Shown: piece by piece, positions 11,843 through 61,161 of the stretch
Layout of the letters: every line of letters begins with the position of its first letter
Numbering within the stretch: position 1 is the stretch's first letter
DNA from: an uncultured Erysipelotrichaceae bacterium
GTDB taxonomy: Bacteria; Bacillota_I; Bacilli_A; RF39; UBA660
Length of the DNA stretch: 61,224 nucleotides
Reading direction: 5' to 3'
NCBI GenBank assembly: GCA_902767245.1
Contig: CACXGO010000037.1
Location: 1 to 61,224 of the forward strand
Notes under the pieces: generated by a model
What the model saw: the letters and a program-made list of their open reading frames with translations, nothing else
Databases searched by the model: none
What the model was told of the DNA's origin: nothing
Position numbers and translations under genes: made by a program

Positions 11843-14035
11843 ATGGCAAAGAAAAAGAAAAGAAAAATTGAAAAAGTTGAACCTAAAAAAGGCTATACTA
11901 TTGAACTTTTAGGGGTCTTAATAGTATTCGCAGTGGTTATTGGTATTTGGAAAAAAGGAACTGTAGGAGAAATTATATATAAATTTGGTAGTTATTTAGC
12001 AGGATCATGGGCTGTGATTCTTTTGATTTTAATTTCTTTTATTGGACTTTATATGATTATTCATAGAAATAAACCAGAATTACTTGGAACGCGTATATTT
12101 GGTTTATATTTAGCTTTATTTGGTATTCTTATGTTTGCACATTCTAATTATGTTTCATTATCGACAACAATGGGCGATACAATTAAACTTACAATAGACG
12201 AGTTTGTTTCAACAATTGATGGTGTGAATGCCGCAACTGGAGGAGGCGTTATTGGTGCATTCTTGGCAAGTATTTTTGTTAGTTTGGTAGCTAAAGAAGG
12301 AACATATGTAATAGCAGCATTATTTATTGTTTATGGCTTTATAAAAGTAACAGGACATTCTATTATTGATGTTTTCAGAGTTTTAATTGCTCGCATTAAG
12401 AAAATGAAGAAAGGTGCAAAGGAAAAAGATCAAGCAGAAATTGAAGCGGCAGATGAGGAATATGAAAATGATAACAAGATTGTTGTTTCTTCTGTAGATG
12501 AAATAATAAATAATACTAAAGATATAAAACCTTCAAAACATGAAGAAGATTTATCAGATGTAGAAATAGTTGGAGCGGGATATACATATCCACCAATTAG
12601 TTTACTTAAAAAGCCACAAAATAAAAATAATCATGAAAATCAGGCTCAGGTAAAAGAAAATGTAGTTATTTTAGAACAAGTCTTTTCAGATTTTGGAGTT
12701 GAAGGCAAGGTTGTAGCTGTTAATATTGGTCCAGCTGTAACCCAATATGAATTAGAGATTAAAGCTGGAACAAAAGTTAGCAAAATCCTTTCTTTAAACC
12801 GTGAAATTGCTTTAGCTTTAGGTGCACGTGATGTTCGTATTCAAGCACCAATTCCAGGAAAAAGAACAGTTGGAGTTGAACTTCCAAATAAAAAAGTCTC
12901 AACTGTAACAGTTCGTGAGATTTTAGAATCTGTTCCAAAAGGTAAGGAAGATAGTAAACTATTGGCAGTTTTAGGCCGTGACATAATGGGGACACCAATT
13001 TATTTTGAAATTAATAAAACTCCACATTTACTTGTTGCTGGTACTACAGGCTCTGGTAAATCAATATGCATTAACAGTATTATTATTTCGCTTATGATGC
13101 GTACAAAACCAGATGAAGTTAAACTAGTTTTAGTAGATCCTAAAAAAGTAGAATTAAATGTTTATAATGGAGCTCCACATTTACTATGTCCAGTTGTTAC
13201 TGAGCCAAGAAAAGCAAGTATAGCACTTAAAAAGATAGTAGCCGAAATGGAACGAAGATATGAAATATTCAGTGAAAATCATGTTAAAAATATTGCTGGT
13301 TATAACATGATGGTTGAAAAGAAAAATGAAGTTTTACTTGACGAACAAAAGATGAAAAAAATGCCTTATATTGTAATTATTATAGATGAGCTTGCAGATT
13401 TAATGCTTGTTGCAGCCAAAGAAGTAGAAGATTCAATTACAAGAATTACTCAGTTGGCTCGTGCTGCTGGAATCCACTTAATTGTTGCAACTCAACGTCC
13501 AAGTACAGATGTTATTACAGGATTAATTAAGGCTAATATTCCATCAAGAATTTCATTTGCAGTATCAAATAGTATTGATTCGAGAACTGTTTTAGATATG
13601 GTTGGAGCCGAGAAATTATTAGGTAGAGGAGATATGTTATTCTTACCAATGGGTGAAAATACACCACTTCGAATTCAAGGAACATATATTTCTGAAGATG
13701 AAATTAACAGTGTTGTAAATTATACTATTTCTCAACAGAAAGCTCATTATGACAACACAATTACAATGTCTGAAGAAGAGGAGCATGCAACTTCAACAGT
13801 TGGTAATAGAGATGCAACAGAAGAACCTCTTTATAACGAGATAGTTGAATTTGTTGTAACTCAAGGTAAAGCAAGTGCATCACTTTTGCAAAGAAAATTT
13901 AGACTTGGTTATAATCGTGCTGCAAGAGCAATTGATTTGCTTGAAGAAAGAGGTATTGTCGGACCACAAAACGGTTCAAAACCACGAGAAGTTTTAGTTA
14001 AATTAGAAAACAAAAATAATTCTGAAGAAGAATAA
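11843..14035 (+). CDS. ftsK: DNA translocase FtsK/SpoIIIE
   Basis: N-terminal TM segments, HLLVAGTTGSGKS Walker A, IIIDELADLM Walker B, ATQRPS, and a C-terminal gamma winged-helix (LYNEIVEFV...ASASLLQRKFRLGYNRAARAIDLLEERGIV). Confidence 0.95.
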   Translation: MAKKKKRKIEKVEPKKGYTIELLGVLIVFAVVIGIWKKGTVGEIIYKFGSYLAGSWAVILLILISFIGLYMIIHRNKPELLGTRIFGLYLALFGILMFAHSNYVSLSTTMGDTIKLTIDEFVSTIDGVNAATGGGVIGAFLASIFVSLVAKEGTYVIAALFIVYGFIKVTGHSIIDVFRVLIARIKKMKKGAKEKDQAEIEAADEEYENDNKIVVSSVDEIINNTKDIKPSKHEEDLSDVEIVGAGYTYPPISLLKKPQNKNNHENQAQVKENVVILEQVFSDFGVEGKVVAVNIGPAVTQYELEIKAGTKVSKILSLNREIALALGARDVRIQAPIPGKRTVGVELPNKKVSTVTVREILESVPKGKEDSKLLAVLGRDIMGTPIYFEINKTPHLLVAGTTGSGKSICINSIIISLMMRTKPDEVKLVLVDPKKVELNVYNGAPHLLCPVVTEPRKASIALKKIVAEMERRYEIFSENHVKNIAGYNMMVEKKNEVLLDEQKMKKMPYIVIIIDELADLMLVAAKEVEDSITRITQLARAAGIHLIVATQRPSTDVITGLIKANIPSRISFAVSNSIDSRTVLDMVGAEKLLGRGDMLFLPMGENTPLRIQGTYISEDEINSVVNYTISQQKAHYDNTITMSEEEEHATSTVGNRDATEEPLYNEIVEFVVTQGKASASLLQRKFRLGYNRAARAIDLLEERGIVGPQNGSKPREVLVKLENKNNSEEE

Positions 14036-36304: not shown

Positions 36305-36350
36305 TTGAAAAAAATTAAAAATAAAGATATAATTAAAATAGGTGATAGTC

Positions 36351-38441
36351 GTGATTAATAAGAAGGGTTTTACACTTATAGAAGTTATTAGCGTTCTAGT
36401 TATATTAGGTCTTATTGCAACACTTGTAGTAACACAATACTCTAATATAATAAAAGATAGTCGTAAACAATTAAACGACGAACAAAAATCACGATTAGTT
36501 GAAGTTGCTAAAAATGTATCACTTAATAATAAAGAATGTTTACAAATTGCTAAAGATAATGAAGCCGGTTCAAAAATAACTATAGATCAAATGAAAAAAA
36601 ATGGTTATATTGCTAACACAGATTTAAAAGATTTAGAAAAAAATTCGAACCTTGATGCTTGTGTAATTATTAATTGGGATTCTATCTATCAAAAATTTAA
36701 TTATCAATATTCTGAAGAATGTAATGTTCCAAAAAATTGTATTATTACAGCAGAATCCGAAAAAGTAATTATAAGTAGCTTTAATTTTGAAGGCGGAAAT
36801 TATACGAATCAGCAAAGTATTACATATAATTTACAATATAGTGCAAGAATTAGTGCTGACTATTGTATTACATTAGAAAATGAAGCAAGTTGTAATTGGA
36901 AAAAACTAAACAGCAATTTAACAAGTTTATCAGGTAATATTAATATTACAAAAAATGAAAACATTGTTCATCTTTATGTCAGAAATAGTAATAAAAATAT
37001 AATAAATTCAATAGATAGAACAATTTATTATGATACAGTACCACCAACATGTGTTTGGCAAAGTGCCAAAGATAATTATATTAAAAATGGTGGATCTACA
37101 GAAATTGTTTTAAGCTGTAATGATCCTGCTGGAATAGATAATGTCACTTTATTATCATCTACAATTAGCTATAATAATTCACTTATTTCATTAAGTGATG
37201 CTATTGTTACAGAAAATGCTAATGGAAAGGATTACAAATTTTCAATTTTAGGATTAACGGGAAATGGAGAAGTAACCTTGTCATTAAATTCAGGTGTTTT
37301 GAAAGATAAGGCCGGTAATGCTATTAATACTACCCTTACGAGTAGTTCAATAGTAGTTGATAATATTTCGCCTACAGCAGATATAAAAATTAATGAGTCT
37401 AATTACACAAATAGTGAGTTTGTAACATTATATTTTTCTAATGCGTCTGATGTTGACAAAATGTGTATAAGCAATACTTCTGGGGGAAATTGTTCTTTTG
37501 TTGCCTATGCTAGTTCTTATCCATGGACTTTAAGTACAAGTGATGGAACTAAGACTGTTTATGTGACATTTAGAGATAGAGCAGGAAATGAAGCAACTAA
37601 AACAGCATCAATTGTGCTTGATAAGACAGCACCAATTTGTACTAGTAGTGCATCTAGTTCTATTAATAGCATAAAAGAAAATGCGTATGTTGATTATACA
37701 ATTAATTGTGTGGATGATAATTTTGAGACTAGACCTCAAATAACAACAGATATGCTTCTTATAGATAACCCTAATTTGGCTGATATTGAAGTTTTAGGTA
37801 CTAATACAAGTGGTACTAAAATTCGTGTAACTGCTAAAAATGGTAATGGGAACATGGCAGTCTATTTAACTCCTTCAATTGAAGATAAAGCTAAAAATAA
37901 AAATATACAAAAACAATTATTTAGTATCAATATTGATAATACACCACCATCAAATAATAGTATTTCGTTTAAATATGACAAAATGACTATAACTAATTTA
38001 AACTATGTGAATTTGGTTTTATCAAGTGATTTACTTCCAAATGAAGGTTATTATTGTTTAAAATTGGAGGATGATATTAGTAAATGCACTAATTCTAATT
38101 GGGAAGTTTATAAAACAAATGTGATTTTTGATGTAAGTCATACGGATGGGACATATAATATTTATGTATTTTTTAAAGATATAGCAGGAAATGTTTCTCC
38201 AAATTCAGTTTCAAAGTCTATAAAAATAAATCATAATGCTATTCAATGCGAATTAAAATTAGAAGATGACAGGTTATTTATTAATTCAACATCAAATAAC
38301 CTAGCTGCAACTCCATATTTTATAAATGGTGAATGGACAACACAAAACTATATTCCAATAGCGAATAATCAAACGCATTATTTTGCCTATATAAAAGATA
38401 ATAATAATGAAATAAATTATTGTGAATATGATAACACTTAA
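36351..38441 (+). CDS. Large modular type IV pilin-like protein (prepilin N-terminal cleavage/methylation motif plus ~5 Ig-like modules)
   Basis: (M)INKKG/FTLIEVISVLVILGLIATLVV is a class III signal peptide with Glu at +5. The C-terminal ~600 aa has recurring ...D.AGN...(I/V)xxDxxxPxC... module boundaries. GTG 36351 lies 5 nt after AGGTGA. Confidence 0.75.
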   Translation: MINKKGFTLIEVISVLVILGLIATLVVTQYSNIIKDSRKQLNDEQKSRLVEVAKNVSLNNKECLQIAKDNEAGSKITIDQMKKNGYIANTDLKDLEKNSNLDACVIINWDSIYQKFNYQYSEECNVPKNCIITAESEKVIISSFNFEGGNYTNQQSITYNLQYSARISADYCITLENEASCNWKKLNSNLTSLSGNINITKNENIVHLYVRNSNKNIINSIDRTIYYDTVPPTCVWQSAKDNYIKNGGSTEIVLSCNDPAGIDNVTLLSSTISYNNSLISLSDAIVTENANGKDYKFSILGLTGNGEVTLSLNSGVLKDKAGNAINTTLTSSSIVVDNISPTADIKINESNYTNSEFVTLYFSNASDVDKMCISNTSGGNCSFVAYASSYPWTLSTSDGTKTVYVTFRDRAGNEATKTASIVLDKTAPICTSSASSSINSIKENAYVDYTINCVDDNFETRPQITTDMLLIDNPNLADIEVLGTNTSGTKIRVTAKNGNGNMAVYLTPSIEDKAKNKNIQKQLFSINIDNTPPSNNSISFKYDKMTITNLNYVNLVLSSDLLPNEGYYCLKLEDDISKCTNSNWEVYKTNVIFDVSHTDGTYNIYVFFKDIAGNVSPNSVSKSIKINHNAIQCELKLEDDRLFINSTSNNLAATPYFINGEWTTQNYIPIANNQTHYFAYIKDNNNEINYCEYDNT

Positions 38442-43401: not shown

Positions 43402-44388
43402 ATGGGGATTTTTGGATTTTTTAAAAATTTTAAAGCAAAAACAGATAAAGAAAAAGAAGAAATAGCTTTATATGATAATGGTTTGAAAAAAACTAGTGAA
43501 CATTTATCAAATAAGTTTTCTTTGTTAAATACAAAATATAAGAAAGTAAATGATGAATACTTTGATGAATTAGAAGAAGCACTTATTATGGCAGATGTTG
43601 GAGTAGATACAGTTGTCAAACTTATTGAAAAGCTAAAGTCACGTGTAAAACACGAAAACATAGAAAATGTTAAAGACTTAAATGAAATTGTAATTGATGA
43701 ATTATTTGTTATTTATGTTAATAATGATATTATTGTTAATAAAATAAATTTTAGTGAAAGTAATCCTACCGTAATTTTATTCGTTGGGGTAAATGGTGTA
43801 GGGAAAACAACAACAATTGGTAAACTAGCAAACGATTTAAAAAATAAAGGCAAAAAAGTTTTACTTGTAGCTGGTGATACTTTTCGAGCAGGTGCTATTG
43901 AGCAATTAAAAGAATGGGGTAAAAGGGTTGATGCACCAGTTGTATCAAATGAAAGTGCAGATCCTGCAAGCGTGGTCTATGATGGCTTAAAAAGGGCGAT
44001 TGATGAAAATTATGATGTAGTTTTAATTGACACTGCAGGGCGTTTACAAAATAAAACAAATTTAATGAATGAGCTTGAAAAAATAAATAGAGTAATTGGA
44101 AATATTGTTCCAAATGCCCCACATGAAACATTACTTGTTTTAGATGCAACAACTGGCCAAAATGGAATTTCACAAGCTAAAAGCTTTAAAGAAATTACAA
44201 AAATAACAGGAATTGTGTTAACTAAACTTGATGGAACAGCTAAAGGCGGAATTGTATTAGCAATCAAAGAAGCTGTAGGTATTCCCGTTAAATACATTGG
44301 TTTAGGTGAAAGAAAAGAAGACTTAAAAGTATTTGATATTGAAAAATATATTCATGGAATTTTTAAAGGATTGATTGATAGTGAATAA
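43402..44388 (+). CDS. ftsY: Signal recognition particle receptor FtsY
   Basis: LFVGVNGVGKTTTIGKLA, VAGDTFRAGAIEQL, IDTAGRL, LTKLDGTAKGG. Confidence 0.97.
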   Translation: MGIFGFFKNFKAKTDKEKEEIALYDNGLKKTSEHLSNKFSLLNTKYKKVNDEYFDELEEALIMADVGVDTVVKLIEKLKSRVKHENIENVKDLNEIVIDELFVIYVNNDIIVNKINFSESNPTVILFVGVNGVGKTTTIGKLANDLKNKGKKVLLVAGDTFRAGAIEQLKEWGKRVDAPVVSNESADPASVVYDGLKRAIDENYDVVLIDTAGRLQNKTNLMNELEKINRVIGNIVPNAPHETLLVLDATTGQNGISQAKSFKEITKITGIVLTKLDGTAKGGIVLAIKEAVGIPVKYIGLGERKEDLKVFDIEKYIHGIFKGLIDSE

Positions 44389-44629
44389 TAAAAAAATAAA
44401 AATTATTTTAGATGTTCAAGTAATAGTTATGATTGTATTTTTGATTTTTATAATAATGTCATTTTTTATAAAAGCATTAGCTGATTTTAGAGAAATTGCT
44501 TTGGGTTTAATACTTTTAATGATGGCATACACAAATAAAAAAGTATATCCTAAAAACAAGATGACATTTTTATATATTGTATTTGGACTTTTACTTATAA
44601 TTCCAAATATAGTGAGGTTGGTAAGTTAA
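44375..44629 (+). CDS. Small hydrophobic (about 3 TM) protein; function unknown
   Basis: ORF overlaps the ftsY 3' end (TTG 44375 or GTG 44381) and is hydrophobic throughout. No homology recognised. Confidence 0.4.
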   Translation: MIVNNKKIKIILDVQVIVMIVFLIFIIMSFFIKALADFREIALGLILLMMAYTNKKVYPKNKMTFLYIVFGLLLIIPNIVRLVS

Positions 44630-44920
44630 ATGGAGAATACTGTATATTTGACCATTTTATATGACTATTACAAAAATTTATTAACTGAGAAACAATGCTT
44701 ATATTTTGAAGATTATTATTTTTACAATTTGTCTTTAAGCGAAATGGCAGAAAGTTACCACATAAGTAGAAGTGCTGTTAATAAGCAATTAAATCTGACA
44801 ATCAATAAGTTGTATGAGTATGAATCAAAATTAAATTTATACGAAAATGGTTTAAAAATAAAAAAACTAATTGAAAAATTACCTGAAAAAACAAAAGAAG
44901 AAATTGAAAAATTAATATAG
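44630..44920 (+). CDS. ylxM: YlxM-type putative DNA-binding protein (UPF0122, SRP-operon associated)
   Basis: YLTILYDYYKNLLTEKQCLYFEDYYFYNLSLSEMAESYHISRSAVNKQL parallels B. subtilis YlxM ([43 protein letters not shown]). Position after ftsY. Confidence 0.85.
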   Translation: MENTVYLTILYDYYKNLLTEKQCLYFEDYYFYNLSLSEMAESYHISRSAVNKQLNLTINKLYEYESKLNLYENGLKIKKLIEKLPEKTKEEIEKLI

Positions 44921-44932
44921 GGGTTGATTTAT

Positions 44933-46687
44933 ATGTTTGAAAAAATTATATATCTGAGTGATAACATGGCACATGTTTCTTTATCACCTAATGTACCATT
45001 GTCTTTTAATATCATGAATATGCATGTAGTATTTCAAGATTCTGAAAAATGCATATTGGGTGAAATTGAAGACATTGATGAAAAAGTTGTCAAAATTCGT
45101 TTTTTGGGCGAATTTAATAATCAAGAATTCATAAGTGGTACTATTAGAAAACCGCTTTTAAATGCAACAATAAGGCTTATAAATAAAGAAGAAATACCAT
45201 ATATAATGGGAGAAAATAATAACAACAATGTTTTTATTGGAACTTCGCCACTTTATAATAATTTTCCAATTTTTAGTTCAATAAATGATTTGTTTAGTAA
45301 TCATATGGCTATATTCGGAAATACCGGTAGTGGTAAATCATATGGAGTAGCTAGGCTTTTACAAAATGTTTTTGAAAATCCAAAATTGCAACCATTCAAA
45401 GCTATTTTTTGGATATTTGATGCTTATGGTGAGTATCATAGCGCTTTTAAAGATATTAATAAAATAAATCCTAATTACAATTTCAAATTTTATTCAACTA
45501 ATGAAGAAACTGGTGGTGAAAAATTAAGAATACCACCTTGGCTTTTAACAGTGGATGATCTAGCTTTATTGCTTCGTGCAGATAGTCATACTCAAATTCC
45601 AATATTAGAAAAGACTTTGAGACTAGTAAGAATATTTTCGCAAAATGATAATGCTTCTTATGCATGTAAGGATTATTTAATTGCAAAAGCAATCGTTAAT
45701 ATAATGTATAATAATCAAACAGCGATGAATAAACGTAATGACATTTTTACAATTTTAAATACTTGTCAGACTCCAAATTTTGGAATCGAAACACTTGTTC
45801 ATGGAATAGGATATACAAGAAGACTTCGTGAGTGTTTTGAAATAGATTTAAATGGCAATTTTGCGGAAACAGTTTTATTAAATACATATTTATCTAATTT
45901 TTTAAATGCTGAAGCTGATAATTATATACCTCAAACATTGAGACCATATTCATTAAAAGATATTGAAAGTGCACTTGATTTTGCTCTTATATCTGATGGA
46001 GTTTTAAATAATCCAAAATCTTATGGCGATGCTATAACTCTAAAAGTAAGACTTCATAGTATTGTAAATAGTGAAAATTCAAGATTTTTTGATTATAATT
46101 TAAGTGAATACATAAATTTAGAAAAATTTATAGCATCTCTAGTTTCTAAAGAAGGAAAAAGAGCACAAATAATAAATTTTAATTTAGAAGATATAGATGA
46201 TGCACTTGCAAAAGTGTTGACAAAAGTATTTTCACGTATGCTTTTTGAATTTACAAAGAATTTGGAAGATAGAGCAACCATTCCATTTAATGTGTTTTTA
46301 GAGGAAGCTCATCGATATGTTCAAAATGATAATGATGTTTATTTGTTAGGATATAATATTTTTGAACGTATTGCTAAGGAAGGAAGAAAATATGGGCTTA
46401 TTTATAATTTAATTTCGCAAAGACCAGTAGAACTTTCAGAAACTGTAATTTCTCAGTGTACTAATTTCTTCATTTTCAAAATGAGTCATCCACGTGACAT
46501 TGATTTTATTAAAAAAATGTTACCAAATATTAATAATGAAATTGTTGAAAAACAAAAAAGTTTACAACCAGGAACTTGTGTAGCCTTTGGTCGCGCATTT
46601 AAAGTTCCTCAAATTATTAAAATGCCACTTCCAAGTCCAGCACCATCAAGTAATAGCTGTGATATTGTGAATAGGTGGAGAGCATGA
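44933..46687 (+). CDS. HerA-like (DUF87) P-loop ATPase of the FtsK-HerA superfamily
   Basis: N-terminal beta-rich, HAS-barrel-like region (ILGEIEDIDEKVVKIRFLGEF), Walker A FGNTGSGKS, long helical insert, Walker B-like PFNVFLEEAHRY, GRKYGLIYNLISQRPVELSETVISQCTNFFIFKM. ATG 44933 is 9 nt after AGGGG. Confidence 0.8.
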   Translation: MFEKIIYLSDNMAHVSLSPNVPLSFNIMNMHVVFQDSEKCILGEIEDIDEKVVKIRFLGEFNNQEFISGTIRKPLLNATIRLINKEEIPYIMGENNNNNVFIGTSPLYNNFPIFSSINDLFSNHMAIFGNTGSGKSYGVARLLQNVFENPKLQPFKAIFWIFDAYGEYHSAFKDINKINPNYNFKFYSTNEETGGEKLRIPPWLLTVDDLALLLRADSHTQIPILEKTLRLVRIFSQNDNASYACKDYLIAKAIVNIMYNNQTAMNKRNDIFTILNTCQTPNFGIETLVHGIGYTRRLRECFEIDLNGNFAETVLLNTYLSNFLNAEADNYIPQTLRPYSLKDIESALDFALISDGVLNNPKSYGDAITLKVRLHSIVNSENSRFFDYNLSEYINLEKFIASLVSKEGKRAQIINFNLEDIDDALAKVLTKVFSRMLFEFTKNLEDRATIPFNVFLEEAHRYVQNDNDVYLLGYNIFERIAKEGRKYGLIYNLISQRPVELSETVISQCTNFFIFKMSHPRDIDFIKKMLPNINNEIVEKQKSLQPGTCVAFGRAFKVPQIIKMPLPSPAPSSNSCDIVNRWRA

Positions 46688-47463
46688 AAAAAGATTTAAC
46701 TAATCCATTAGTTATTATTTCTTTAATATTAGTTATATTAGTAATAGCAATCTTTATTAAGTATTATTTTGTTAAACCATTATTTAAAGAAGCAAGTAAA
46801 ATTGAAGTTTCAGCAGAAGAAAAACTAGATTTGAAACTTTTGACAAAAGCTTATTTAAATCAAAACAAAAATATAGCAATTCAAAAAAAGCTTTTTGGTT
46901 CAAATAATATAAATGAATTTGCAGTTGCTGCCAATTACTATTATTTAAAAAAGGGAATTGATCATTTAAATGAATATGATTCAATTCTTAAAGTTGGGAG
47001 AAAAATATTTAACAATAAGAGTTTAAATTTTTCTAATTTTGAGGTTAACATTGATGAAAAATCATGCGGTAAAGAAAAATATACGACATTAGAAGGAATA
47101 ATTTATAATGATGAATGTGATAAAGAACTTTTAATCTATGAAATAGGTGACATTTACAAGCAAGGAAATAATTATGTTGTTGAGTTTTATGCTTCAAAAG
47201 CTGTTCAAAAATTAATTTCTTCAAACAAGGAATGTGATAATTATGAAAAGTCAGTTGCATATAATTTAACATTAACTGATTTAGAAAATAATGAATTTTT
47301 TAATGAATTATATTCAAGGTGTTGTTTAGATAATTGCTTGGTAGAAGGAATCGATTCATTAAAGGATGATATTTTAAAGCAAATGAAAATGCACAATCAC
47401 ATCTATAAATTAGTTTTTCAAAAAAATGAAAATGATTTTGTATATGATAAGCTAAAAAAATAA
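46684..47463 (+). CDS. N-terminally membrane-anchored protein with a six-cysteine C-terminal domain; function unknown; translationally coupled to the HerA-like ATPase
   Basis: ATGA start/stop overlap at 46684-46687. TM helix LVIISLILVILVIAIFI. Cys in SCG, ECD, ECD, RCC and NC contexts. Terminator follows. Confidence 0.65.
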   Translation: MKKDLTNPLVIISLILVILVIAIFIKYYFVKPLFKEASKIEVSAEEKLDLKLLTKAYLNQNKNIAIQKKLFGSNNINEFAVAANYYYLKKGIDHLNEYDSILKVGRKIFNNKSLNFSNFEVNIDEKSCGKEKYTTLEGIIYNDECDKELLIYEIGDIYKQGNNYVVEFYASKAVQKLISSNKECDNYEKSVAYNLTLTDLENNEFFNELYSRCCLDNCLVEGIDSLKDDILKQMKMHNHIYKLVFQKNENDFVYDKLKK

Positions 47464-47483
47464 GCATTATTGCTTATTTTTTT
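47459..47483 (+). terminator. Rho-independent terminator ending the ftsY...HerA unit
   Basis: AATAAGCA (47459-47466) / TGCTTATT (47471-47478), then T-run. Confidence 0.75.
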
Positions 47484-47484
47484 A

Positions 47485-47513
47485 TTGATAACATTATTTT
47501 TTTAAGATATAAT
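47485..47513 (+). promoter_or_regulatory. Sigma-A promoter of the AI-2E transporter gene
   Basis: TTGATA (47485-47490), 17 nt, TATAAT (47508-47513). Confidence 0.6.
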
Positions 47514-47531
47514 TATAATGAGGTGTTTAAT

Positions 47532-48659
47532 ATGAATAATAAAGATCTTAATTACAAAAAATTGAATGAAGTCATTTCTTTATCAAGCAAATTATTAAAA
47601 ATATTTTACTTTTTAATAATTGTTGTTGGTATTTATGCATGTACTTTGATTGCAAAAGAATGGACAATATTTAAAACAATTGGGACAATTATAGGACTAT
47701 TGACACCACTTTTTATTGGACTTATATTTTCTTGGTTACTTAAACCTTTGGTTAACTATTTAGAAACTAAAAAAGTAAGACGATGGATTACAATAGTTGC
47801 CATTTATGTTGTTATATTAGCTTTATTATATTTATTGTTATCAACACTTATTCCTGTTTTATATGAACAAGTTAGTGAATTAGCTAAATTATTACCATCA
47901 ATATTTTCGGATTTAAAAGTATCAATAAACAAATTTATTGATGGTATTAATGGAACAATGGGAGTTGATTTTTCAGCAGCTAAAGATAATATTTTTATGA
48001 AAATTGAGGAATGGGCAATGACATTGGTTCAAGATTTACCAAATACTTTAATTTCTTTTGGCAGTTCGATTATATCAGGCGTTGGTACATTTATAATAGG
48101 CTTAATAATTGGAGCATTTTTGTTAATTAAACCAAAAAAAGAAATATCGTTGGTAAAGCTTTTACCTAAAAAATATCAGTTTGATACAGAATTATTATTA
48201 TCCGAAATAAATTCAATATTTAGAAGTTTTGTTAACGGAACTCTTGCACTTGCAACTTTAGTATTTGCTTTATGTGCAATCGGTTTTTCAATTGCGGATT
48301 TAAAAGGTGCAATTCTATTTGCATTCTTCTGCGGAATAACTAATATTATTCCATATATTGGACCATATATAGGGGCTGCTCCAGCATTAGTTGTTGCGTT
48401 TTCGCAAGGAACTGGAGTTGGTATAGCAGTTTTAATTGTTATTTTGATTGTTCAAGGTTTAGAAGGGAATTTATTACAACCAATTGTTATGAGTCGTACA
48501 ATGAAATTAAGTCCAGTAACAGTTATAATTGCATTATTGGTATTTGGTCATTTCTGGGGAGTTATAGGTATGATTTTATCTACTCCAATAATTGCAACAC
48601 TTAAATCTCTATTCGTATTTTTAAATAAAAAATTTAATGTAATAAAATATAACATCTAA
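47532..48659 (+). CDS. AI-2E family transporter (PerM/YtvI-like permease)
   Basis: Polytopic membrane protein with the family-typical C-terminal region (ITNIIPYIGPYIGAAPALVVA...LLQPIVMSRTMKLSPVTVIIALLVFGHFWGVIGMILSTPI). Confidence 0.8.
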   Translation: MNNKDLNYKKLNEVISLSSKLLKIFYFLIIVVGIYACTLIAKEWTIFKTIGTIIGLLTPLFIGLIFSWLLKPLVNYLETKKVRRWITIVAIYVVILALLYLLLSTLIPVLYEQVSELAKLLPSIFSDLKVSINKFIDGINGTMGVDFSAAKDNIFMKIEEWAMTLVQDLPNTLISFGSSIISGVGTFIIGLIIGAFLLIKPKKEISLVKLLPKKYQFDTELLLSEINSIFRSFVNGTLALATLVFALCAIGFSIADLKGAILFAFFCGITNIIPYIGPYIGAAPALVVAFSQGTGVGIAVLIVILIVQGLEGNLLQPIVMSRTMKLSPVTVIIALLVFGHFWGVIGMILSTPIIATLKSLFVFLNKKFNVIKYNI

Positions 48660-48698: not shown

Positions 48699-49244
48699 AT
48701 GGAATTTAATAAAAAAGAAATAAAACTATTTATTTTGTCTGGAAAATCAGGAAGTGGGAAAGATACTACTTATTCAATTATTGAAAAATTTTATAAAGAT
48801 AAAAAAGTAATAGGAATATCATTTGCATATTATATCAAAGATTATGCTAAACGTGTAAGTAATTGGGATGGTAGTGAAGAGACAAAACCACGAGAACTTT
48901 TACAAAATATTGGGATTGAATTAGTAAAAGAAAAAATTGATGATCGACTTTTTATTAGAAGAGTATTAGAAGATATTGAAATATTTTCCTATTTTTATGA
49001 TATAATAGTCGTTACTGATGCAAGATTAGTTGAAGAAGTAGAAGAATTGAAGAAGAAATATCCAAATTCAATAAGCATTAGATTAAAAAGAGATGTTCAA
49101 AATAAACTTTCTCAAGAAGAAAAAAAGCATTTAACTGAAGTAGGATTAGATAATTATGATAATTTTGATTATGTAATTGAAAATAATGATAATCTGTTAA
49201 AAGAGAAAGTTGAAAAAGTTTTAAAAGAGGTAAATCATGAATAA
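48699..49244 (+). CDS. P-loop kinase resembling phage-type deoxynucleoside monophosphate (dNMP) kinases
   Basis: LFILSGKSGSGKDTT P-loop (cf. T4 gp1 FLSGVKRSGKDT); size about 180 aa. Confidence 0.55.
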   Translation: MEFNKKEIKLFILSGKSGSGKDTTYSIIEKFYKDKKVIGISFAYYIKDYAKRVSNWDGSEETKPRELLQNIGIELVKEKIDDRLFIRRVLEDIEIFSYFYDIIVVTDARLVEEVEELKKKYPNSISIRLKRDVQNKLSQEEKKHLTEVGLDNYDNFDYVIENNDNLLKEKVEKVLKEVNHE

Positions 49245-49788
49245 AATAATCGCAATAGTAGGAATGTGTGGGGTTGGAAAGTCAGTGGCCAGTGAATATT
49301 TAGAAAATTTAGGGTATAAAAAAGTATATTTTGGTGGTATTACATATGACAAATTGAAAGAGGCTGGAATTGAGCGTACACCAGAATCAGAAAAGAAAAT
49401 GCGTGAAGGGTTAAGAAAAGAGTATGGAATGGCTTGTTACGCAATTTTATCTCTACCAAAAATAAAAGAATATTACAAAAATAGTAATGTAGTTATTGAT
49501 GATTTATATAGTTGGTCAGAATATAAAACTTTGATAAACGAATTTGGTAATAATGTAGTTTTAATAGGTGTTATTGCAGATAAAGAAATTCGTTATTCAA
49601 GGATTGCAATTCGACCTGGAAGAAGTTATAATTGTGCTGAAGCGATTGATCGTGATTTAAGTGAAATTGAAAATTTAGAAAAAGGTGGTCCAATAGCTTA
49701 TGCAGATTATTTCATATTTAATAATGGAACAATTTCTGAATATCATAAAAGATTAGATGAAATACTAAAACAAATTGAAGGTGAATAA
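49237..49788 (+). CDS. P-loop nucleotide/nucleoside kinase-like protein (UPF0200 / dephospho-CoA-kinase-like AAA ATPase type)
   Basis: IIAIVGMCGVGKSVASEYLENLGY P-loop, RxxxR lid-like IRYSRIAIRPGR, C-terminal ADYFIFNNGT. Confidence 0.55.
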   Translation: MNKIIAIVGMCGVGKSVASEYLENLGYKKVYFGGITYDKLKEAGIERTPESEKKMREGLRKEYGMACYAILSLPKIKEYYKNSNVVIDDLYSWSEYKTLINEFGNNVVLIGVIADKEIRYSRIAIRPGRSYNCAEAIDRDLSEIENLEKGGPIAYADYFIFNNGTISEYHKRLDEILKQIEGE

Positions 49789-49790
49789 AA

Positions 49791-51539
49791 ATGAATTTGA
49801 AAGATTTATATATTGATTTTTTTGTAAGCAAAGGACATGTGCAAATTCCAAGTGCTCCAGTAGTGCCTGAAAATGATCCAAGTGTACTATTTAATACAGC
49901 AGGGATGCAACCTTTAATTCCATATCTAATGGGCCAAAAACATCCTTATGGTACAAGACTATGTGATTATCAAAAATGTGTTCGAACTAATGATTTGGAT
50001 AATATTGGAGATACTTATCATCATACTTTTTTTGAAATGTTAGGTAATTGGAGTTTAGGAGATTATTTTAAAAAAGAAGCTATTACTTGGAGTTTTGAAT
50101 TTTTAACTAAAGTCTTAAATATCCCAGTTGAGAGACTTGCTGTTACAGTTTTTGCTGGTAATGATATTATTTCAAAAGACGAAGAGGCAATTGCTATATG
50201 GAAGAGTCTTGGAATAAAAGATGAAAGAATTTGTCCAACTGCTAATGATAATTTTTGGATTGCCGGTGAAACCGGACCATGTGGACCAGATACCGAAATG
50301 TTTTATTTTAGAAGTAATGATCCTATTCCAGAAAAATTTGATCCTGAAGATAATCGTTGGGTTGAAATTTGGAATGATGTTTTTATGCAATATAACAAAG
50401 ATGCAAGTGGCAGTGTAACTGAACTTCCACATAAAAATGTTGATACTGGTATGGGAGTTGAAAGAACAACCGCTATTTTAGAAGGAGTTAATGATAATTA
50501 TTTATCATCAATTTGGTCTGATGTTATCGCATTAATCGAAAAAATATCTGGATTAAAATATGCTGGTCATGAAAAAGAGATGCGTATTATTGCTGATCAT
50601 ATGCGTACAGCAGTATTTATTTCGGCTGATCCAGCAGGAATAAAGCCATCAAATACAGATCAAGGATATATTTTAAGAAGACTCATCAGAAGAACAATAA
50701 GATATGCTAAAAAATTAGATATTGATATTAATTCTGATTGGGAAAAAGAAATTGCTGAATTGATTATTTCAAAGTATGATAATTATTATTCGGAATTAAA
50801 AACAAACCATGAAGTTGTTTTAAATGTCTTAAATTCTGAAAAAGTTAAATTTAACCGTACATTAGAAAAAGGATTGAAAGAGTTTAATAAAATCGTGAGT
50901 GCCTTAACTGATAAAGTTTTAAACAAAGACCTAGCATTTAAACTTTATGATACCTATGGATTTCCTATTGAACTTACAGTTGAACTTGCAAATGAGCAAG
51001 GAATTACAGTTGATGAAGAAGGTTTTAAAGAAAAATTTAAAGCTCATCAAGAATTATCTAGAACTGCATCAGCAGGTAAGTTTAAAGGTGGTTTAGCTGG
51101 TAACAATGAAATTGAAACACGTTATCATACAGCAACTCATTTGCTTAACGCCGCTTTAAAGAAAGTTATAAATAATGATGTTCATCAAAAGGGATCAAAT
51201 ATTACAGATGAAAGAATGCGTTTTGATTTCTCGTGTGATCATAAATTAACTCCAGAAGAAATTGAACAAGCAGAAAAATTAGTTAATGAATACATAAAAG
51301 AAGGATTAGATGTAACGGTTGAGTCAATGCCAAAAGAAGAAGCTATTAAGTCTGGAGCAGAATGTATGTTCATTGAAAAATATCCTGATATTGTAACAGT
51401 TTATTCAATTGGAGATGTTTCAAAAGAATTATGTGGTGGACCTCATGTAAAAAATACACGTGAGCTTGGTGAATTTAAAATAATTAAAGAAGAAGCATCA
51501 TCGGCAGGTGTAAGAAGAATAAAAGCTATTTTAAAATAG
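49791..51539 (+). CDS. alaS: Alanine--tRNA ligase, short form (582 aa): catalytic and tRNA-recognition domains plus a minimal editing core; no C-Ala domain
   Basis: FFVSKGH, DPSVLFTNAGM-like DPSVLFNTAGMQP, QKCVRTNDLDNIG, HHTFFEMLGNWSLGDYFK, GPCGPDTEMF, WNDVFMQYN, VDTGMGVERT, HTATHLLNAAL (HxxxH), CGGPHV, GVRRIKAILK then stop. Confidence 0.85.
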   Translation: MNLKDLYIDFFVSKGHVQIPSAPVVPENDPSVLFNTAGMQPLIPYLMGQKHPYGTRLCDYQKCVRTNDLDNIGDTYHHTFFEMLGNWSLGDYFKKEAITWSFEFLTKVLNIPVERLAVTVFAGNDIISKDEEAIAIWKSLGIKDERICPTANDNFWIAGETGPCGPDTEMFYFRSNDPIPEKFDPEDNRWVEIWNDVFMQYNKDASGSVTELPHKNVDTGMGVERTTAILEGVNDNYLSSIWSDVIALIEKISGLKYAGHEKEMRIIADHMRTAVFISADPAGIKPSNTDQGYILRRLIRRTIRYAKKLDIDINSDWEKEIAELIISKYDNYYSELKTNHEVVLNVLNSEKVKFNRTLEKGLKEFNKIVSALTDKVLNKDLAFKLYDTYGFPIELTVELANEQGITVDEEGFKEKFKAHQELSRTASAGKFKGGLAGNNEIETRYHTATHLLNAALKKVINNDVHQKGSNITDERMRFDFSCDHKLTPEEIEQAEKLVNEYIKEGLDVTVESMPKEEAIKSGAECMFIEKYPDIVTVYSIGDVSKELCGGPHVKNTRELGEFKIIKEEASSAGVRRIKAILK

Positions 51540-60536: not shown

Positions 60537-60669
60537 ATAACGCCGTAGACAGTAGGTGCTTTAAAGCTTAATTTCCTACCGAGGATATAAAGAAATGAGA
60601 TTCTTGACTCCTACGGTAAGTAGGAGTTTTATTATACGGCTTTTAAAATTAAAGGAGGAGGTACTTTTA
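60537..60669 (+). promoter_or_regulatory. Ribosomal protein L10 leader with an intrinsic attenuator
   Basis: GCCGTAGACAGTAGG...CCTACCGAGG helix typical of the Firmicute L10 leader. Attenuator hairpin ACTCCTAC (60607-60614) / GTAGGAGT (60620-60627) followed by TTTTATT. CCTAC occurs twice, which allows alternative pairing. Confidence 0.7.
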
Positions 60670-61161
60670 ATGGCAAATCAAAAAATATTAGATCAAAAAG
60701 CATTAGTTGTTAATGAAATAGCTGATAAAGTTAAAAATGCTGCAACATTTGTAGTGTTTAACAATAATGGTCTAAATGTAGCTGAACTTACCGAACTTAG
60801 AAGAAAGTTAAAAGAAACAGGTTCAGAAGTTAAAATTTACAAGAATACACTTGTAAAAAGAGCTTTGAAACCATTGAAAATTGAATTAGATGATGAATTC
60901 AATGGACCAAAAGCAATTGCATTTGGTAGTGATGCTTTAGCACCAATTAAAGTTGTTAATGAATTTGCTAAAGAACATCCAGCTTTAGAAATAAAAGTAG
61001 GATATACTGATGGTGAAATAATTGACATCAAGAAGTTACAAGCATTAGCTGCTGTACCAGGAAGACAAGAATTACTTACTATGCTTGCTGGCGCTTTGAT
61101 GGGACAAGTAAGAAACTTATCAATAGCATTAAATATGTATCAAGAAAAATTAGAAAAATAA
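60670..61161 (+). CDS. rplJ: 50S ribosomal protein L10
   Basis: MANQKILDQKALVVNEIADKVKNAATFVVFNNNGLNVAELTELRRKL.... ATG 60670 follows GGAGGAGG; the track start 60595 lies inside the leader. Confidence 0.95.
   Translation: MANQKILDQKALVVNEIADKVKNAATFVVFNNNGLNVAELTELRRKLKETGSEVKIYKNTLVKRALKPLKIELDDEFNGPKAIAFGSDALAPIKVVNEFAKEHPALEIKVGYTDGEIIDIKKLQALAAVPGRQELLTMLAGALMGQVRNLSIALNMYQEKLEK

What the first reader, a model, noticed from the sequence alone, without database searches (positions are those of the whole stretch)
44933..47483. HerA/FtsK-superfamily ATPase coupled to an uncharacterised membrane-anchored Cys-rich protein, occupying the slot where ffh normally follows ftsY-ylxM
Seen: a 584-aa ORF has the defining HerA/DUF87 layout. 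This comprises a beta-rich HAS-barrel-like N-terminus, Walker A GNTGSGKS, a long helical insert, a Walker B-like FLEEAHRY, and ISQRP...CTNFFIFKM. Its TGA overlaps the ATG of the next ORF (ATGA, 46684-46687). That next ORF is a 259-aa protein with one N-terminal TM helix and six cysteines in its C-terminal domain, and I recognise no family for it. Only 12 nt separate the ylxM stop from the ATPase start. The first terminator in the region comes after the second gene, so the pair appears co-transcribed with ftsY, a small TM ORF and ylxM. Established: in Bacillus-type genomes ylxM is followed by ffh, and bacterial HerA proteins usually pair with NurA nuclease or with SIR2 or DUF4297 effectors in anti-phage systems. 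None of these, and no ffh, is present here. Inference: this is a HerA module with a new, membrane-bound partner. It could be a novel defence/abortive-infection pair or a membrane-tethered nucleic-acid or protein translocase.
Basis: partly seen in the sequence, partly recalled or inferred. Interest (0 to 1): 0.72.

Follow-up and report, generated by a model that had tools for sequence, protein, structure and literature searches.

The report
Stand-alone HerA ATPase beside unrelated membrane protein
The ATPase is a genuine, intact HerA-type ring motor from an uncharacterised chromosomal clade of uncultured gut Bacilli, but the Cys-rich membrane protein behind it is only a lineage-specific neighbour, not a partner, and ffh has merely been displaced, so this is not a new two-gene defence or translocation system.

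Summary
The interpretation does not hold.

- **ATPase.** It is a full-length, catalytically intact HerA (Foldseek TM 0.6-0.7 to HerA structures; the R-finger R485/K486 aligns with R455/K456 of 8xau). It belongs to a clade found in at least 597 reference species of uncultured Bacilli. The clade sits in housekeeping contexts, is absent from phages, plasmids and viral contigs, and diverges almost as slowly as FtsY and RNase J.
- **No fixed partner.** Among 90 loci the downstream gene varies: Ffh, LDH, TatD, gpsA, a response regulator and others.
- **The 259-aa protein.** It is a tiny orphan family (14 representatives in 1.84 billion proteins). It evolves fast, and its distant members lie between def and smc with no HerA.
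- **ffh.** In several relatives it lies directly behind herA (ftsY-ylxM-herA-ffh), so it was displaced here rather than replaced.

The most likely function is a hexameric dsDNA translocase in chromosome maintenance working with partners encoded elsewhere; this is inferred. Interest is modest.

The parts
43402..44388 (+). ftsY (SRP receptor), first gene of the co-directional string
   Evidence: Pfam SRP54 1.8e-79 and SRP54_N 2.8e-15.
44375..44629 (+). Small conserved membrane protein (82-84 aa, three hydrophobic segments, 'AYNN..Y.R/K..T..Y' motif). The start is TTG 44375 or GTG 44381 and overlaps the end of ftsY.
   Evidence: ORF. Alignment of 20 homologues. Local HMM finds it in 27 of 37 ftsY-ylxM-herA loci and in no other herA context. 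No Pfam, NCBIfam or PHROG hit.
44630..44920 (+). ylxM (UPF0122 / p13-like HTH protein)
   Evidence: Pfam PF04297 1.5e-22; NCBIfam YlxM 1.6e-22, 79.4 bits against a cutoff of 80.
44919..44923 (+). AGGGG ribosome-binding site, 9 nt upstream of the herA ATG, inside the 12-nt ylxM-herA spacer
   Evidence: Read directly from the sequence.
44933..46687 (+). HerA-clade ATPase, 584 aa. HAS-barrel aa 1-116; RecA-like core; helix-bundle insert about aa 207-404; C-terminal hook about aa 565-584.
   Evidence: Pfam DUF87 2.2e-22; PADLOC HerA PDLC04102 1e-108. AF2 model pLDDT 76.9. Foldseek TM 0.59-0.71 to full-length HerA chains 8yhx, 8xav, 9c1m, 8sub, 4d2i.
45317..45340 (+). Walker A GNTGSGKS (aa 129-136, K135)
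   Evidence: G129, N130 and G132-S136 are invariant and T131 is nearly invariant in alignment A1. Aligns to the Walker A of 9c1m and 8xau.
46295..46318 (+). Walker B region FLEEAHRY (aa 455-462; acidic pair E457/E458)
   Evidence: F455, L456, E457, E458, H460, R461 and Y462 are invariant in A1. Aligns to 'CEEAHNY' and 'YEEAHKY' of the solved HerAs.
46385..46390 (+). Trans-acting arginine finger R485/K486 within AKEGRKYG
   Evidence: Aligns residue for residue with R455/K456 of 8xau, which PMC11291478 identifies as the R-finger. Changed to T-K in the degenerate L104 copy.
46684..46687 (+). ATGA overlap of the herA stop and the start of the next ORF (translational coupling), preceded by GGTGGAG
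   Evidence: Read directly from the sequence.
46684..47463 (+). Orphan-family bitopic protein, 259 aa. TM helix about aa 8-30; small helical region; beta-sheet domain with six Cys (C128, C145, C184 and C213 invariant). Judged a neighbour, not a partner.
   Evidence: No Pfam, NCBIfam, PADLOC or PHROG family. AF2 pLDDT 84.6. No Foldseek match in PDB or BFVD. Only 14 representatives among 1.84e9 proteins. Distant members lie next to def and smc.
47453..47484 (+). Intrinsic-terminator-like A/U-rich hairpin plus U-run that closes the ftsY...259-aa string
   Evidence: -13.5 kcal/mol, z -6.56, 0 of 200 shuffles as stable.
47485..47513 (+). Promoter-like site (TTGATA-17-TATAAT) for the next gene, an AI-2E family transporter
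   Evidence: 11 of 12 consensus matches. Pfam AI-2E_transport 1.8e-58 for 47523-48656.

Best explanation
The 584-aa gene encodes a catalytically intact HerA-clade ATPase of the FtsK-HerA superfamily. It has a HAS-barrel, a RecA-like core with Walker A K135, Walker B E457/E458 and a trans R-finger R485/K486, a helix-bundle insert and a C-terminal hook.

It belongs to an uncharacterised chromosomal clade spread through uncultured, low-G+C gut Bacilli (MAGs labelled Bacilli, Tenericutes or Mollicutes). This clade has no fixed gene neighbour and no adjacent effector.

In one subclade, which includes this window, the gene sits directly after ylxM in the string ftsY-(small membrane protein)-ylxM-herA(-ffh) and is probably co-transcribed with it. 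In the window's lineage ffh has been moved elsewhere and a fast-evolving orphan gene follows herA with a 4-nt overlap. That gene encodes an N-terminally anchored Cys-rich protein. The juxtaposition is a lineage-specific operon accident, not a two-component system.

Inferred mechanism: the protein forms a hexameric ring that uses ATP to translocate double-stranded DNA through its pore, as solved HerAs do. It probably serves chromosome or DNA maintenance (end processing, recombination or DNA uptake) together with partners encoded elsewhere.

Shown here: family, fold, motif integrity, distribution, lack of a conserved partner, and separability of the 259-aa family. Inferred: hexamer formation, DNA substrate and cellular role.
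For: **Family and fold.** Pfam DUF87 and PADLOC HerA at 1e-108. PDB profile hits to HerA of HerA-DUF4297, SIR2-HerA and Sulfolobus HerA. Foldseek gives full-length matches at TM 0.59-0.71. The R-finger and Walker motifs align to 8xau and 9c1m, and all are invariant in 12 homologues.

**Distribution.** More than 8000 database relatives. At least 597 reference species genomes, all uncultured Bacilli-type MAGs among the best 80.

**No fixed partner.** Clustering neighbours over 90 loci gives three recurrent but different housekeeping contexts: ftsY-ylxM; gatA-gatB...ThiF-gpsA-rarA-xerC/D; yqeG-yqeH. No universal neighbour appears. Genes immediately downstream are Ffh, LDH, TatD, an acyltransferase, a zinc-ribbon protein and unknowns, with no effector domains.

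**Constraint.** Mean identity to the window over 37 syntenic loci is 61 % for HerA, against 70 % for FtsY, 70 % for RNase J and 55 % for YlxM.

**Not mobile.** Best phage hit 28 %, best plasmid hit 31 % (a SIR2-HerA pair), viral contigs at most 38 %.

**ffh.** Pfam-confirmed Ffh lies 5-75 nt behind herA in L018, L024, L027, L030, L031, L036, L044, L119, L127 and L137.

**Partner separable.**
Against: - The nearest sequence and structure relatives are defence-system HerAs rather than repair HerAs.
- In an FtsY-anchored, unbiased sample only 26 of 59 informative loci carry herA after ylxM. The gene is therefore not fixed at this site, and I could not show that genomes lacking it there carry it elsewhere.
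- One close relative (L104) has a HerA that lost the R-finger and the SQRP motif, so the gene can be dispensable.
- Two paralogous lineages can coexist on one contig (L029).
- No DNA-repair partner (NurA, RecJ, Mre11/Rad50) was seen nearby.
- The DNA substrate and the role are inferred from homology only.
Confidence: 0.6

Rival explanations
1. One reading: HerA and the 259-aa membrane protein form a new two-component system, either a defence/abortive-infection pair or a membrane-tethered translocase. The ATPase would sense or pump, and the membrane protein would act as effector or anchor.
For: The two genes overlap by 4 nt and share a terminator. The overlap and gene order are kept in the close clade (L008-L010, L101, L103-L105). 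The closest characterised HerAs are defence ATPases that always work with a second protein. The second protein has no known family or fold.
Against: - Distant members of the 259-aa family lie between def and smc without HerA.
- HerA orthologues outside the close clade have unrelated downstream genes.
- The 259-aa protein is 48 % identical where HerA, FtsY and RNase J are 89-90 %.
- In L104 the 259-aa gene is equally well kept although HerA has lost its R-finger.
- If the N-terminus faces the cytoplasm, as its charges suggest, only about 8 residues are available to touch a cytoplasmic ATPase (read from the sequence).
- The locus is not a defence island or mobile element.
- NCBIfam anti-phage HerA equivalogs score 155-164 bits against cutoffs of 800-850.
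Confidence: 0.06
2. An 'orphan' or modular defence HerA. The clade would be an immune ATPase whose effector is encoded elsewhere or is swapped, with the variable gene or tail downstream of herA as the effector module.
For: The nearest relatives are SIR2-HerA and DUF4297-HerA ATPases, and PADLOC HerA models are the best profile hits. Occupancy of the ylxM site is patchy. L104 shows decay, and paralogues exist. The downstream gene and the C-terminal tails are highly variable.
Against: - No effector-type domain (SIR2, nuclease, TIR, protease) occurs in the coupled downstream genes. They are LDH, TatD, an acyltransferase, Ffh, gpsA and unknowns.
- The C-terminal tails are low-complexity, not domains.
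- All contexts are housekeeping.
- The clade is absent from phages, plasmids and viral contigs.
- Sequence conservation is close to that of FtsY and RNase J over the same genome pairs, unlike arms-race genes.
Confidence: 0.12
3. An SRP-linked motor. The ATPase has been recruited to the ftsY-ylxM-ffh operon because it works with the signal-recognition-particle pathway or membrane-protein biogenesis, for example together with the small conserved membrane protein encoded between ftsY and ylxM.
For: herA lies between ylxM and ffh with a median spacing of 11 nt from ylxM in a monophyletic subclade of 37 loci. A conserved small membrane protein shares the operon in 27 of them. Other members of the FtsK-HerA superfamily translocate proteins (established knowledge: T7SS EssC, T4SS VirB4/VirD4).
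Against: - Sister and deeper clades of the same ATPase lie in unrelated contexts (gatAB...rarA; yqeG-yqeH) with no SRP gene within 10 kb.
- 10 of 37 operon copies lack the small membrane protein.
- Genes after ylxM are highly variable in this group, so position there carries little information.
- Divergently oriented RNase J is just as syntenic.
- The ATPase has no membrane segment, and its closest relatives act on DNA.
Confidence: 0.05

Closest known systems
HerA of the DUF4297-HerA anti-phage system (PDB 9c1m, 8xau, 8ziq; PMC11291478; bioRxiv 10.1101/2024.10.24.620088)
   Same: Best sequence match among solved structures (profile E 2.8e-52). Full-length structural match at TM about 0.63. [quoted passage not shown] Identical 'ERIAKEGRKYG...SQRP...SQC' block including the R-finger.
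   Different: Only about 21 % identity over the fold alignment. No DUF4297 gene is adjacent. The setting is chromosomal and housekeeping rather than a defence island or plasmid. NCBIfam anti-phage HerA equivalogs are far below cutoff.
HerA of SIR2-HerA (Nezha) systems (PDB 8j4u, 8sub, 8wld; PMC11514289)
   Same: Same fold (TM 0.62-0.67). The nearest plasmid relative (31 % identity, Enterococcus innesii pEIDB1) is a SIR2-HerA pair.
   Different: No SIR2 gene in the window or in any of the 90 related loci next to herA. This clade is not on plasmids or phages.
Archaeal and bacterial HerA-NurA DNA-end-resection motor (PDB 4d2i, 9x1m; PMC9960219, PMC3326311)
   Same: Same superfamily and fold. A hexameric dsDNA translocase is the mechanism I infer. 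Chromosomal and housekeeping in character.
   Different: No NurA (or Mre11/Rad50) neighbour. NCBIfam repair-type HerA equivalogs score 91-111 bits against cutoffs of 800-970. Sequence is closer to the defence-type HerAs.
Thermus thermophilus HepA (PMC5448004)
   Same: A bacterial HerA homologue conserved throughout a lineage, with DNA-dependent ATPase activity and roles in competence, DNA donation and UV/heat tolerance (abstract read). This is a precedent for a lineage-wide, non-defence bacterial HerA.
   Different: Different phylum. No direct sequence comparison was made here. No phenotype is known for the present clade.
Bacillus-type ftsY / ylxM-ffh gene string
   Same: ftsY and ylxM are present and adjacent. 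The canonical ftsY-ylxM-ffh order exists in relatives L126, L128 and L135.
   Different: In the window's subclade herA is inserted between ylxM and ffh. In the window's own lineage ffh is no longer within about 14 kb downstream in the window, nor within 10 kb beyond either end.

Membership tests
HerA clade of the FtsK-HerA superfamily | N-terminal HAS-barrel domain | tested here: met
   The AF2 model has seven or more beta-strands in aa 1-116. Foldseek alignments to HerA chains span the full length, 600-650 columns.
HerA clade of the FtsK-HerA superfamily | RecA-like core with Walker A and Walker B; match to the Pfam DUF87 (HerA central domain) profile above cutoff | tested here: met
   DUF87 scores 80.7 bits against a cutoff of 23.2. 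GNTGSGKS and FLEE are conserved.
HerA clade of the FtsK-HerA superfamily | Trans-acting arginine finger | tested here: met
   R485/K486 align with R455/K456 of 8xau, which are defined as the R-finger in PMC11291478.
HerA clade of the FtsK-HerA superfamily | Helix-bundle insertion and C-terminal hook or brace to the neighbouring subunit | tested here: met
   Helices at aa 207-404 in the model. The C-terminal 'LPSPAPSSNSCDIVNRW' aligns to 'LPNPEPRSQSIKFHKKW' of 9c1m.
HerA clade of the FtsK-HerA superfamily | Hexameric ring with ATP-driven DNA translocation | not testable with these tools
   Needs biochemistry or cryo-EM. No multimer prediction tool was available.
SIR2-HerA / DUF4297-HerA anti-phage systems | Adjacent SIR2 or DUF4297 effector gene | tested here: not met
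   Neighbours are ylxM and an orphan protein with no Pfam or PADLOC family. No such neighbour appears in 90 related loci.
SIR2-HerA / DUF4297-HerA anti-phage systems | Score above the NCBIfam equivalog cutoffs for anti-phage HerA | tested here: not met
   HerA_antiphage_2 scores 163.8 against 850; HerA_antiphage scores 155.5 against 800.
SIR2-HerA / DUF4297-HerA anti-phage systems | Location in defence islands or mobile elements, with sporadic distribution | tested here: not met
   Housekeeping neighbours. No clade member in phages, plasmids or IMG/VR. Caveat: occupancy of the ylxM site is patchy.
SIR2-HerA / DUF4297-HerA anti-phage systems | Protection against phage | not testable with these tools
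   Needs an experiment.
HerA-NurA end-resection complex | Adjacent NurA nuclease; score above the repair-type HerA equivalog cutoffs | tested here: not met
   No NurA-like neighbour. HerA_Thermprot scores 110.7 against 800; helicase_HerA scores 91.3 against 970.
FtsK/SpoIIIE | FtsK_SpoIIIE motor profile above cutoff, gamma domain, membrane or linker region | tested here: not met
   PF01580 scores 16.2 against a cutoff of 24. A separate complete FtsK (alpha, motor, gamma) is encoded at window 11843-14035.
T4SS coupling protein / VirB4 with a VirB8-like bitopic partner | TrwB/VirD4 or VirB4 profile above cutoff for the ATPase; NTF2-like VirB8 fold for the partner | tested here: not met
   TrwB_AAD_bind scores 17.7 against 20.5. 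The partner's best VirB8-like match (TraE, 5i97) has Foldseek probability 0.13 and TM 0.17-0.27, which is not significant.
ftsY-ylxM-ffh operon | ffh immediately downstream of ylxM | tested here: not met
   herA follows ylxM here. There is no ffh in the window or within 10 kb beyond either end. In relatives ffh follows herA.

The most novel reading that the evidence does not exclude
This partnerless HerA clade is a lineage-specific housekeeping motor of genome-reduced gut Bacilli. It was recruited into the SRP operon because it acts at the membrane with FtsY, YlxM, Ffh and the small 'AYNN' membrane protein, as a new nucleic-acid or polypeptide translocation function. Its variable anchored downstream proteins, including the 259-aa Cys-rich one, would be clade-specific accessories.
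Probability: 0.05. Interest if true: 0.8.

Novelty: new variant of a known kind. Interest (0 to 1): 0.3.

Why it matters
Characterised bacterial HerA ATPases work as one half of a pair, with NurA in repair or with SIR2 or DUF4297 in anti-phage defence. This clade is well conserved, chromosomal and effector-less, and it is widespread in an abundant but uncultured group of gut Bacilli.

If it is a housekeeping DNA motor, it would show what HerA does outside those pairs, and might indicate from what the defence HerAs were recruited.

For annotation, the practical lesson is twofold. A strong PADLOC 'HerA' hit plus an overlapping unknown gene is not evidence of a defence system. In these rearranged small genomes, operon position after ylxM carries little functional information.

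The 259-aa protein remains a small orphan family with a confident predicted fold that matches nothing solved. That is of minor interest on its own.

Tried and rejected
1. **HerA as a substitute for a missing FtsK.** Rejected: the window encodes a complete FtsK/SpoIIIE at 11843-14035.

2. **Loss of ffh from the lineage.** Rejected for the lineage: Ffh sits right behind herA in many relatives. For this genome I could only show it is absent from the window plus or minus 10 kb.

3. **The long HerA ORFs (700-1010 aa) in relatives as HerA-partner fusions.** Rejected: the extensions are low-complexity N/Q/S/T/P tails with no similarity to the 259-aa protein and no TM segment.

4. **TGA read-through (genetic code 4) joining the two ORFs.** Rejected: TGA ends 12 of 51 long ORFs, and orthologues end at the same C-terminal ...NRW motif.

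5. **The small ftsY-ylxM membrane ORF as the real membrane partner.** Not supported: it is absent from 10 of 37 operon copies and from all other herA contexts.

6. **Fold assignment for the 259-aa protein.** Foldseek against PDB and BFVD gave nothing with E below 0.04. The weak VirB8-like and SnoaL-like hits are not significant.

7. **Literature.** No paper links HerA with ylxM. Papers that mention HerA together with ffh and ftsY do so incidentally.

8. **One look-up failed.** The last window ORF (60595-61161) is not on record. One Pfam call failed because I gave wrong coordinates.


Full report
**Observation.** The window is about 26 % G+C and carries a co-directional string on the + strand:
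- ftsY, 43402-44388.
- An 82-84-aa hydrophobic ORF, 44375/44381-44629.
- ylxM, 44630-44920.
- A 584-aa ORF, 44933-46687.
- A 259-aa ORF, 46684-47463.

Twelve nucleotides containing an AGGGG ribosome-binding site separate the ylxM stop from the ATPase ATG. The ATPase TGA overlaps the next ATG (ATGA, 46684-46687). The motifs GNTGSGKS, FLEEAHRY and ISQRP...CTNFFIFKM are present. The 259-aa protein has one N-terminal helix and six cysteines. The generic terminator scan missed the A/U-rich terminator. Folding shows a hairpin plus U-run at 47453-47484 (-13.5 kcal/mol, z -6.6), and there is no structure at the internal junctions. A near-consensus promoter-like site follows at 47485-47513. Co-transcription of the five genes is therefore plausible but was not tested.

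**The ATPase is a genuine, intact HerA.** The profile hits are:
- Pfam DUF87 at 2.2e-22.
- PADLOC HerA model PDLC04102 at 1e-108 over nearly the full length.
- PDB profile hits to the HerA subunits of HerA-DUF4297 (9c1m, 2.8e-52; 8xau; 8ziq), of SIR2-HerA (8wiv, 8j4u) and to Sulfolobus HerA (4d2i).

An AlphaFold model (pLDDT 76.9) matches full-length HerA chains at TM 0.59-0.71. It has an N-terminal beta-barrel, a RecA-like core, a helical insert of about 200 aa and a C-terminal tail. The 'AKEGRKYG' motif aligns residue for residue with R455/K456 of 8xau, which is the trans R-finger defined in PMC11291478. All catalytic residues are invariant in twelve homologues at 60-90 % identity.

The protein is not an equivalog of any named HerA. 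NCBIfam anti-phage and repair HerA models score 91-164 bits against cutoffs of 800-970. The FtsK and TrwB profiles are below cutoff.

**Distribution and context of the ATPase clade.** The word-index search returned more than 8000 relatives, of which the best 120 are 60-100 % identical. The best 80 are all uncultured 'Bacilli', 'Tenericutes' or 'Mollicutes' MAGs, plus Coprobacillus sp. CAG:605, Ca. Onthousia and Ca. Coprosoma.

I called ORFs in 90 loci and classified the neighbours. Three different recurrent contexts appear, and all are housekeeping:
- (A) (RNase J)-ftsY-[small membrane ORF]-ylxM-herA, in 37 loci.
- (B) gatA-gatB...herA...ThiF-like, gpsA, rarA, xerC/D-like, in 13 loci.
- (C) yqeG-yqeH-herA, in 9 loci.

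No neighbour is universal. A neighbour-joining tree makes A monophyletic, with B as its sister and C deeper. One contig (L029) carries both an A-type and a C-type copy, so paralogous lineages exist.

No member of the clade occurs in phage genomes (best 28 %), in plasmids or in IMG/VR contigs (at most 38 %). The best plasmid hit, at 31 %, is a SIR2-HerA pair on an Enterococcus plasmid.

Over the 37 syntenic loci, mean identity to the window is 61 % for HerA, 70 % for FtsY, 70 % for RNase J and 55 % for YlxM. This constraint is close to that of essential genes.

**ffh.** A Pfam-confirmed Ffh (SRP54_N, SRP54, SRP_SPB) lies 5-75 nt behind herA in L018, L024, L027, L030, L031, L036 and L044, and 0.4-6 kb behind it in seven more loci. 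The FtsY-anchored metagenome sample adds L119, L127 and L137 with ftsY-ylxM-herA-ffh, and L126, L128 and L135 with the canonical ftsY-ylxM-ffh. So herA sits between ylxM and ffh; it does not replace ffh.

In the window's own lineage ffh is not within the window or within 10 kb beyond either end. I could not search the rest of the 875-kb contig.

What follows ylxM differs widely among relatives: a glycosyltransferase, DnaD-like genes, kinases and surface proteins. The 'slot' therefore has little functional meaning.

**The 259-aa protein is not a HerA partner.** Six lines of evidence point the same way.
- It has no Pfam, NCBIfam, PADLOC or PHROG family.
- It has a confident predicted structure (pLDDT 84.6): a TM helix, three helices and a beta-sheet domain. 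Nothing in PDB or BFVD matches it significantly.
- An exhaustive profile search of 1.84 billion representatives found only 14 proteins.
- It is 37-53 % identical among genomes whose HerA is 84-90 % identical.
- Three distant members (P0136, P0137, P0139) are confirmed homologues with the same Cys pattern. They are encoded between peptide deformylase and a convergent smc, with no HerA.
- Conversely, HerA orthologues outside the close clade are followed by a response regulator, gpsA, LDH, TatD, an acyltransferase, a zinc-ribbon protein, Ffh or unrelated small anchored proteins. None has an effector-type domain.

The long HerA ORFs in some genomes carry low-complexity tails, not a fused partner.

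L104 is a close relative (FtsY 80 % identical) with identical synteny through alaS. Its HerA has diverged to 58 % and has lost the R-finger (R485T) and the SQRP motif. The 259-aa gene is nonetheless as well kept as in genomes with an intact HerA.

The overlap reflects operon packing in one lineage.

**Caveats on 'housekeeping'.** The FtsY-anchored sample is unbiased with respect to herA. In it, only 26 of 59 informative loci have herA after ylxM. I cannot tell whether the others carry it elsewhere, as contexts B and C suggest, or lack it. L104 shows that the ATPase can decay. So the gene is strongly constrained in most lineages but is probably not universally essential.

**Mechanism.** What is shown is the fold, the motifs and the distribution. 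What is inferred is that the protein forms a hexameric ring that translocates dsDNA using ATP, as in the solved HerAs (PMC11291478; 4d2i). I infer that it acts in chromosome or DNA maintenance with trans-encoded partners. Thermus HepA is a precedent for a lineage-wide, non-defence bacterial HerA that affects competence, DNA donation and UV/heat tolerance (PMC5448004).

It does not replace FtsK, because a complete FtsK is encoded at 11843-14035.

The rivals, with my probabilities, are:
- A modular or orphan defence HerA, 0.12.
- An SRP-linked motor, 0.05.

**Verdict.** This is a new, effector-less chromosomal variant of the known HerA kind, sitting next to an unrelated orphan membrane protein. 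Interest is 0.3.

Noticed in passing
window 44375/44381-44629: A small membrane protein (82-84 aa, three hydrophobic segments) encoded between ftsY and ylxM is a real conserved family with an 'AYNN..Y.R/K..T..Y' motif. It is present in 27 of 37 ftsY-ylxM-herA loci and has no Pfam, NCBIfam or PHROG hit.
   Followed up: partly
L104:7512-9215: A close relative with identical synteny (FtsY 80 % identical) has a HerA only 58 % identical to the window's. It has lost the R-finger (AKEGRKYG to AKEGTKYG) and changed SQRP to SSIP. This looks like relaxed constraint or a pseudo-enzyme in an otherwise intact ORF.
   Followed up: partly
L022, L024, L026-L028, L030, L031, L034, L037, L044, L065, L090 (3' ends of herA): Some orthologues carry 100-435-aa low-complexity N/Q/S/T/P-rich C-terminal tails. 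Several end in a short hydrophobic-acidic tip, for example ...PLIDLTLDDDDDDDDNSFD...TLVDLNLDDKDDDPNDFA and ...GIPLVALSDE. These resemble tethering peptides such as SSB or FtsZ C-terminal tips.
   Followed up: no
L029:352-2139 and L029:10001-11749: Two HerA paralogues of this family, one A-type and one C-type, lie 8 kb apart on one contig.
   Followed up: partly
window 11843-14035: A complete FtsK/SpoIIIE of 730 aa with alpha, motor and gamma domains is encoded 31 kb upstream of herA.
   Followed up: yes
window 49791-51539: The alanyl-tRNA synthetase is only 582 aa (tRNA-synt_2c plus tRNA_SAD). To my knowledge typical bacterial AlaRS is about 870 aa, so the C-terminal part appears to be missing. 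The start of the same gene is seen in L104.
   Followed up: no
window 48699-49788: Two overlapping small P-loop kinase genes: one DNMK-like (the deoxynucleotide monophosphate kinase family, 2.7e-11) and one AAA_18. The pair is conserved downstream of the AI-2E transporter in L104, and at least the first gene is conserved in L105.
   Followed up: no
window 36342-38441; clusters near herA in L015, L029, L032, L051, L052, L054, L059, L081, L089: A 699-aa protein has a pilin-type N-terminal methylation motif plus an Ig-like domain. Short pseudopilin-like genes recur within 5 kb of herA in nine loci. This is probably inherited synteny, but it is notable given the competence phenotype of Thermus HepA.
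   Followed up: no
L011:4460-4906, L012:4549-4956, L019:5667-6044 (approximate, directly after herA): A second, unrelated family of small N-terminally anchored beta-rich proteins (125-148 aa, about 33 % identical to each other) is translationally coupled to herA in three loci. It has no Pfam hit.
   Followed up: partly
L100-L179 (FtsY-anchored loci): The gene following ylxM is highly variable among FtsY relatives at 62-73 % identity. The ylxM-ffh linkage has been broken repeatedly in this group.
   Followed up: partly
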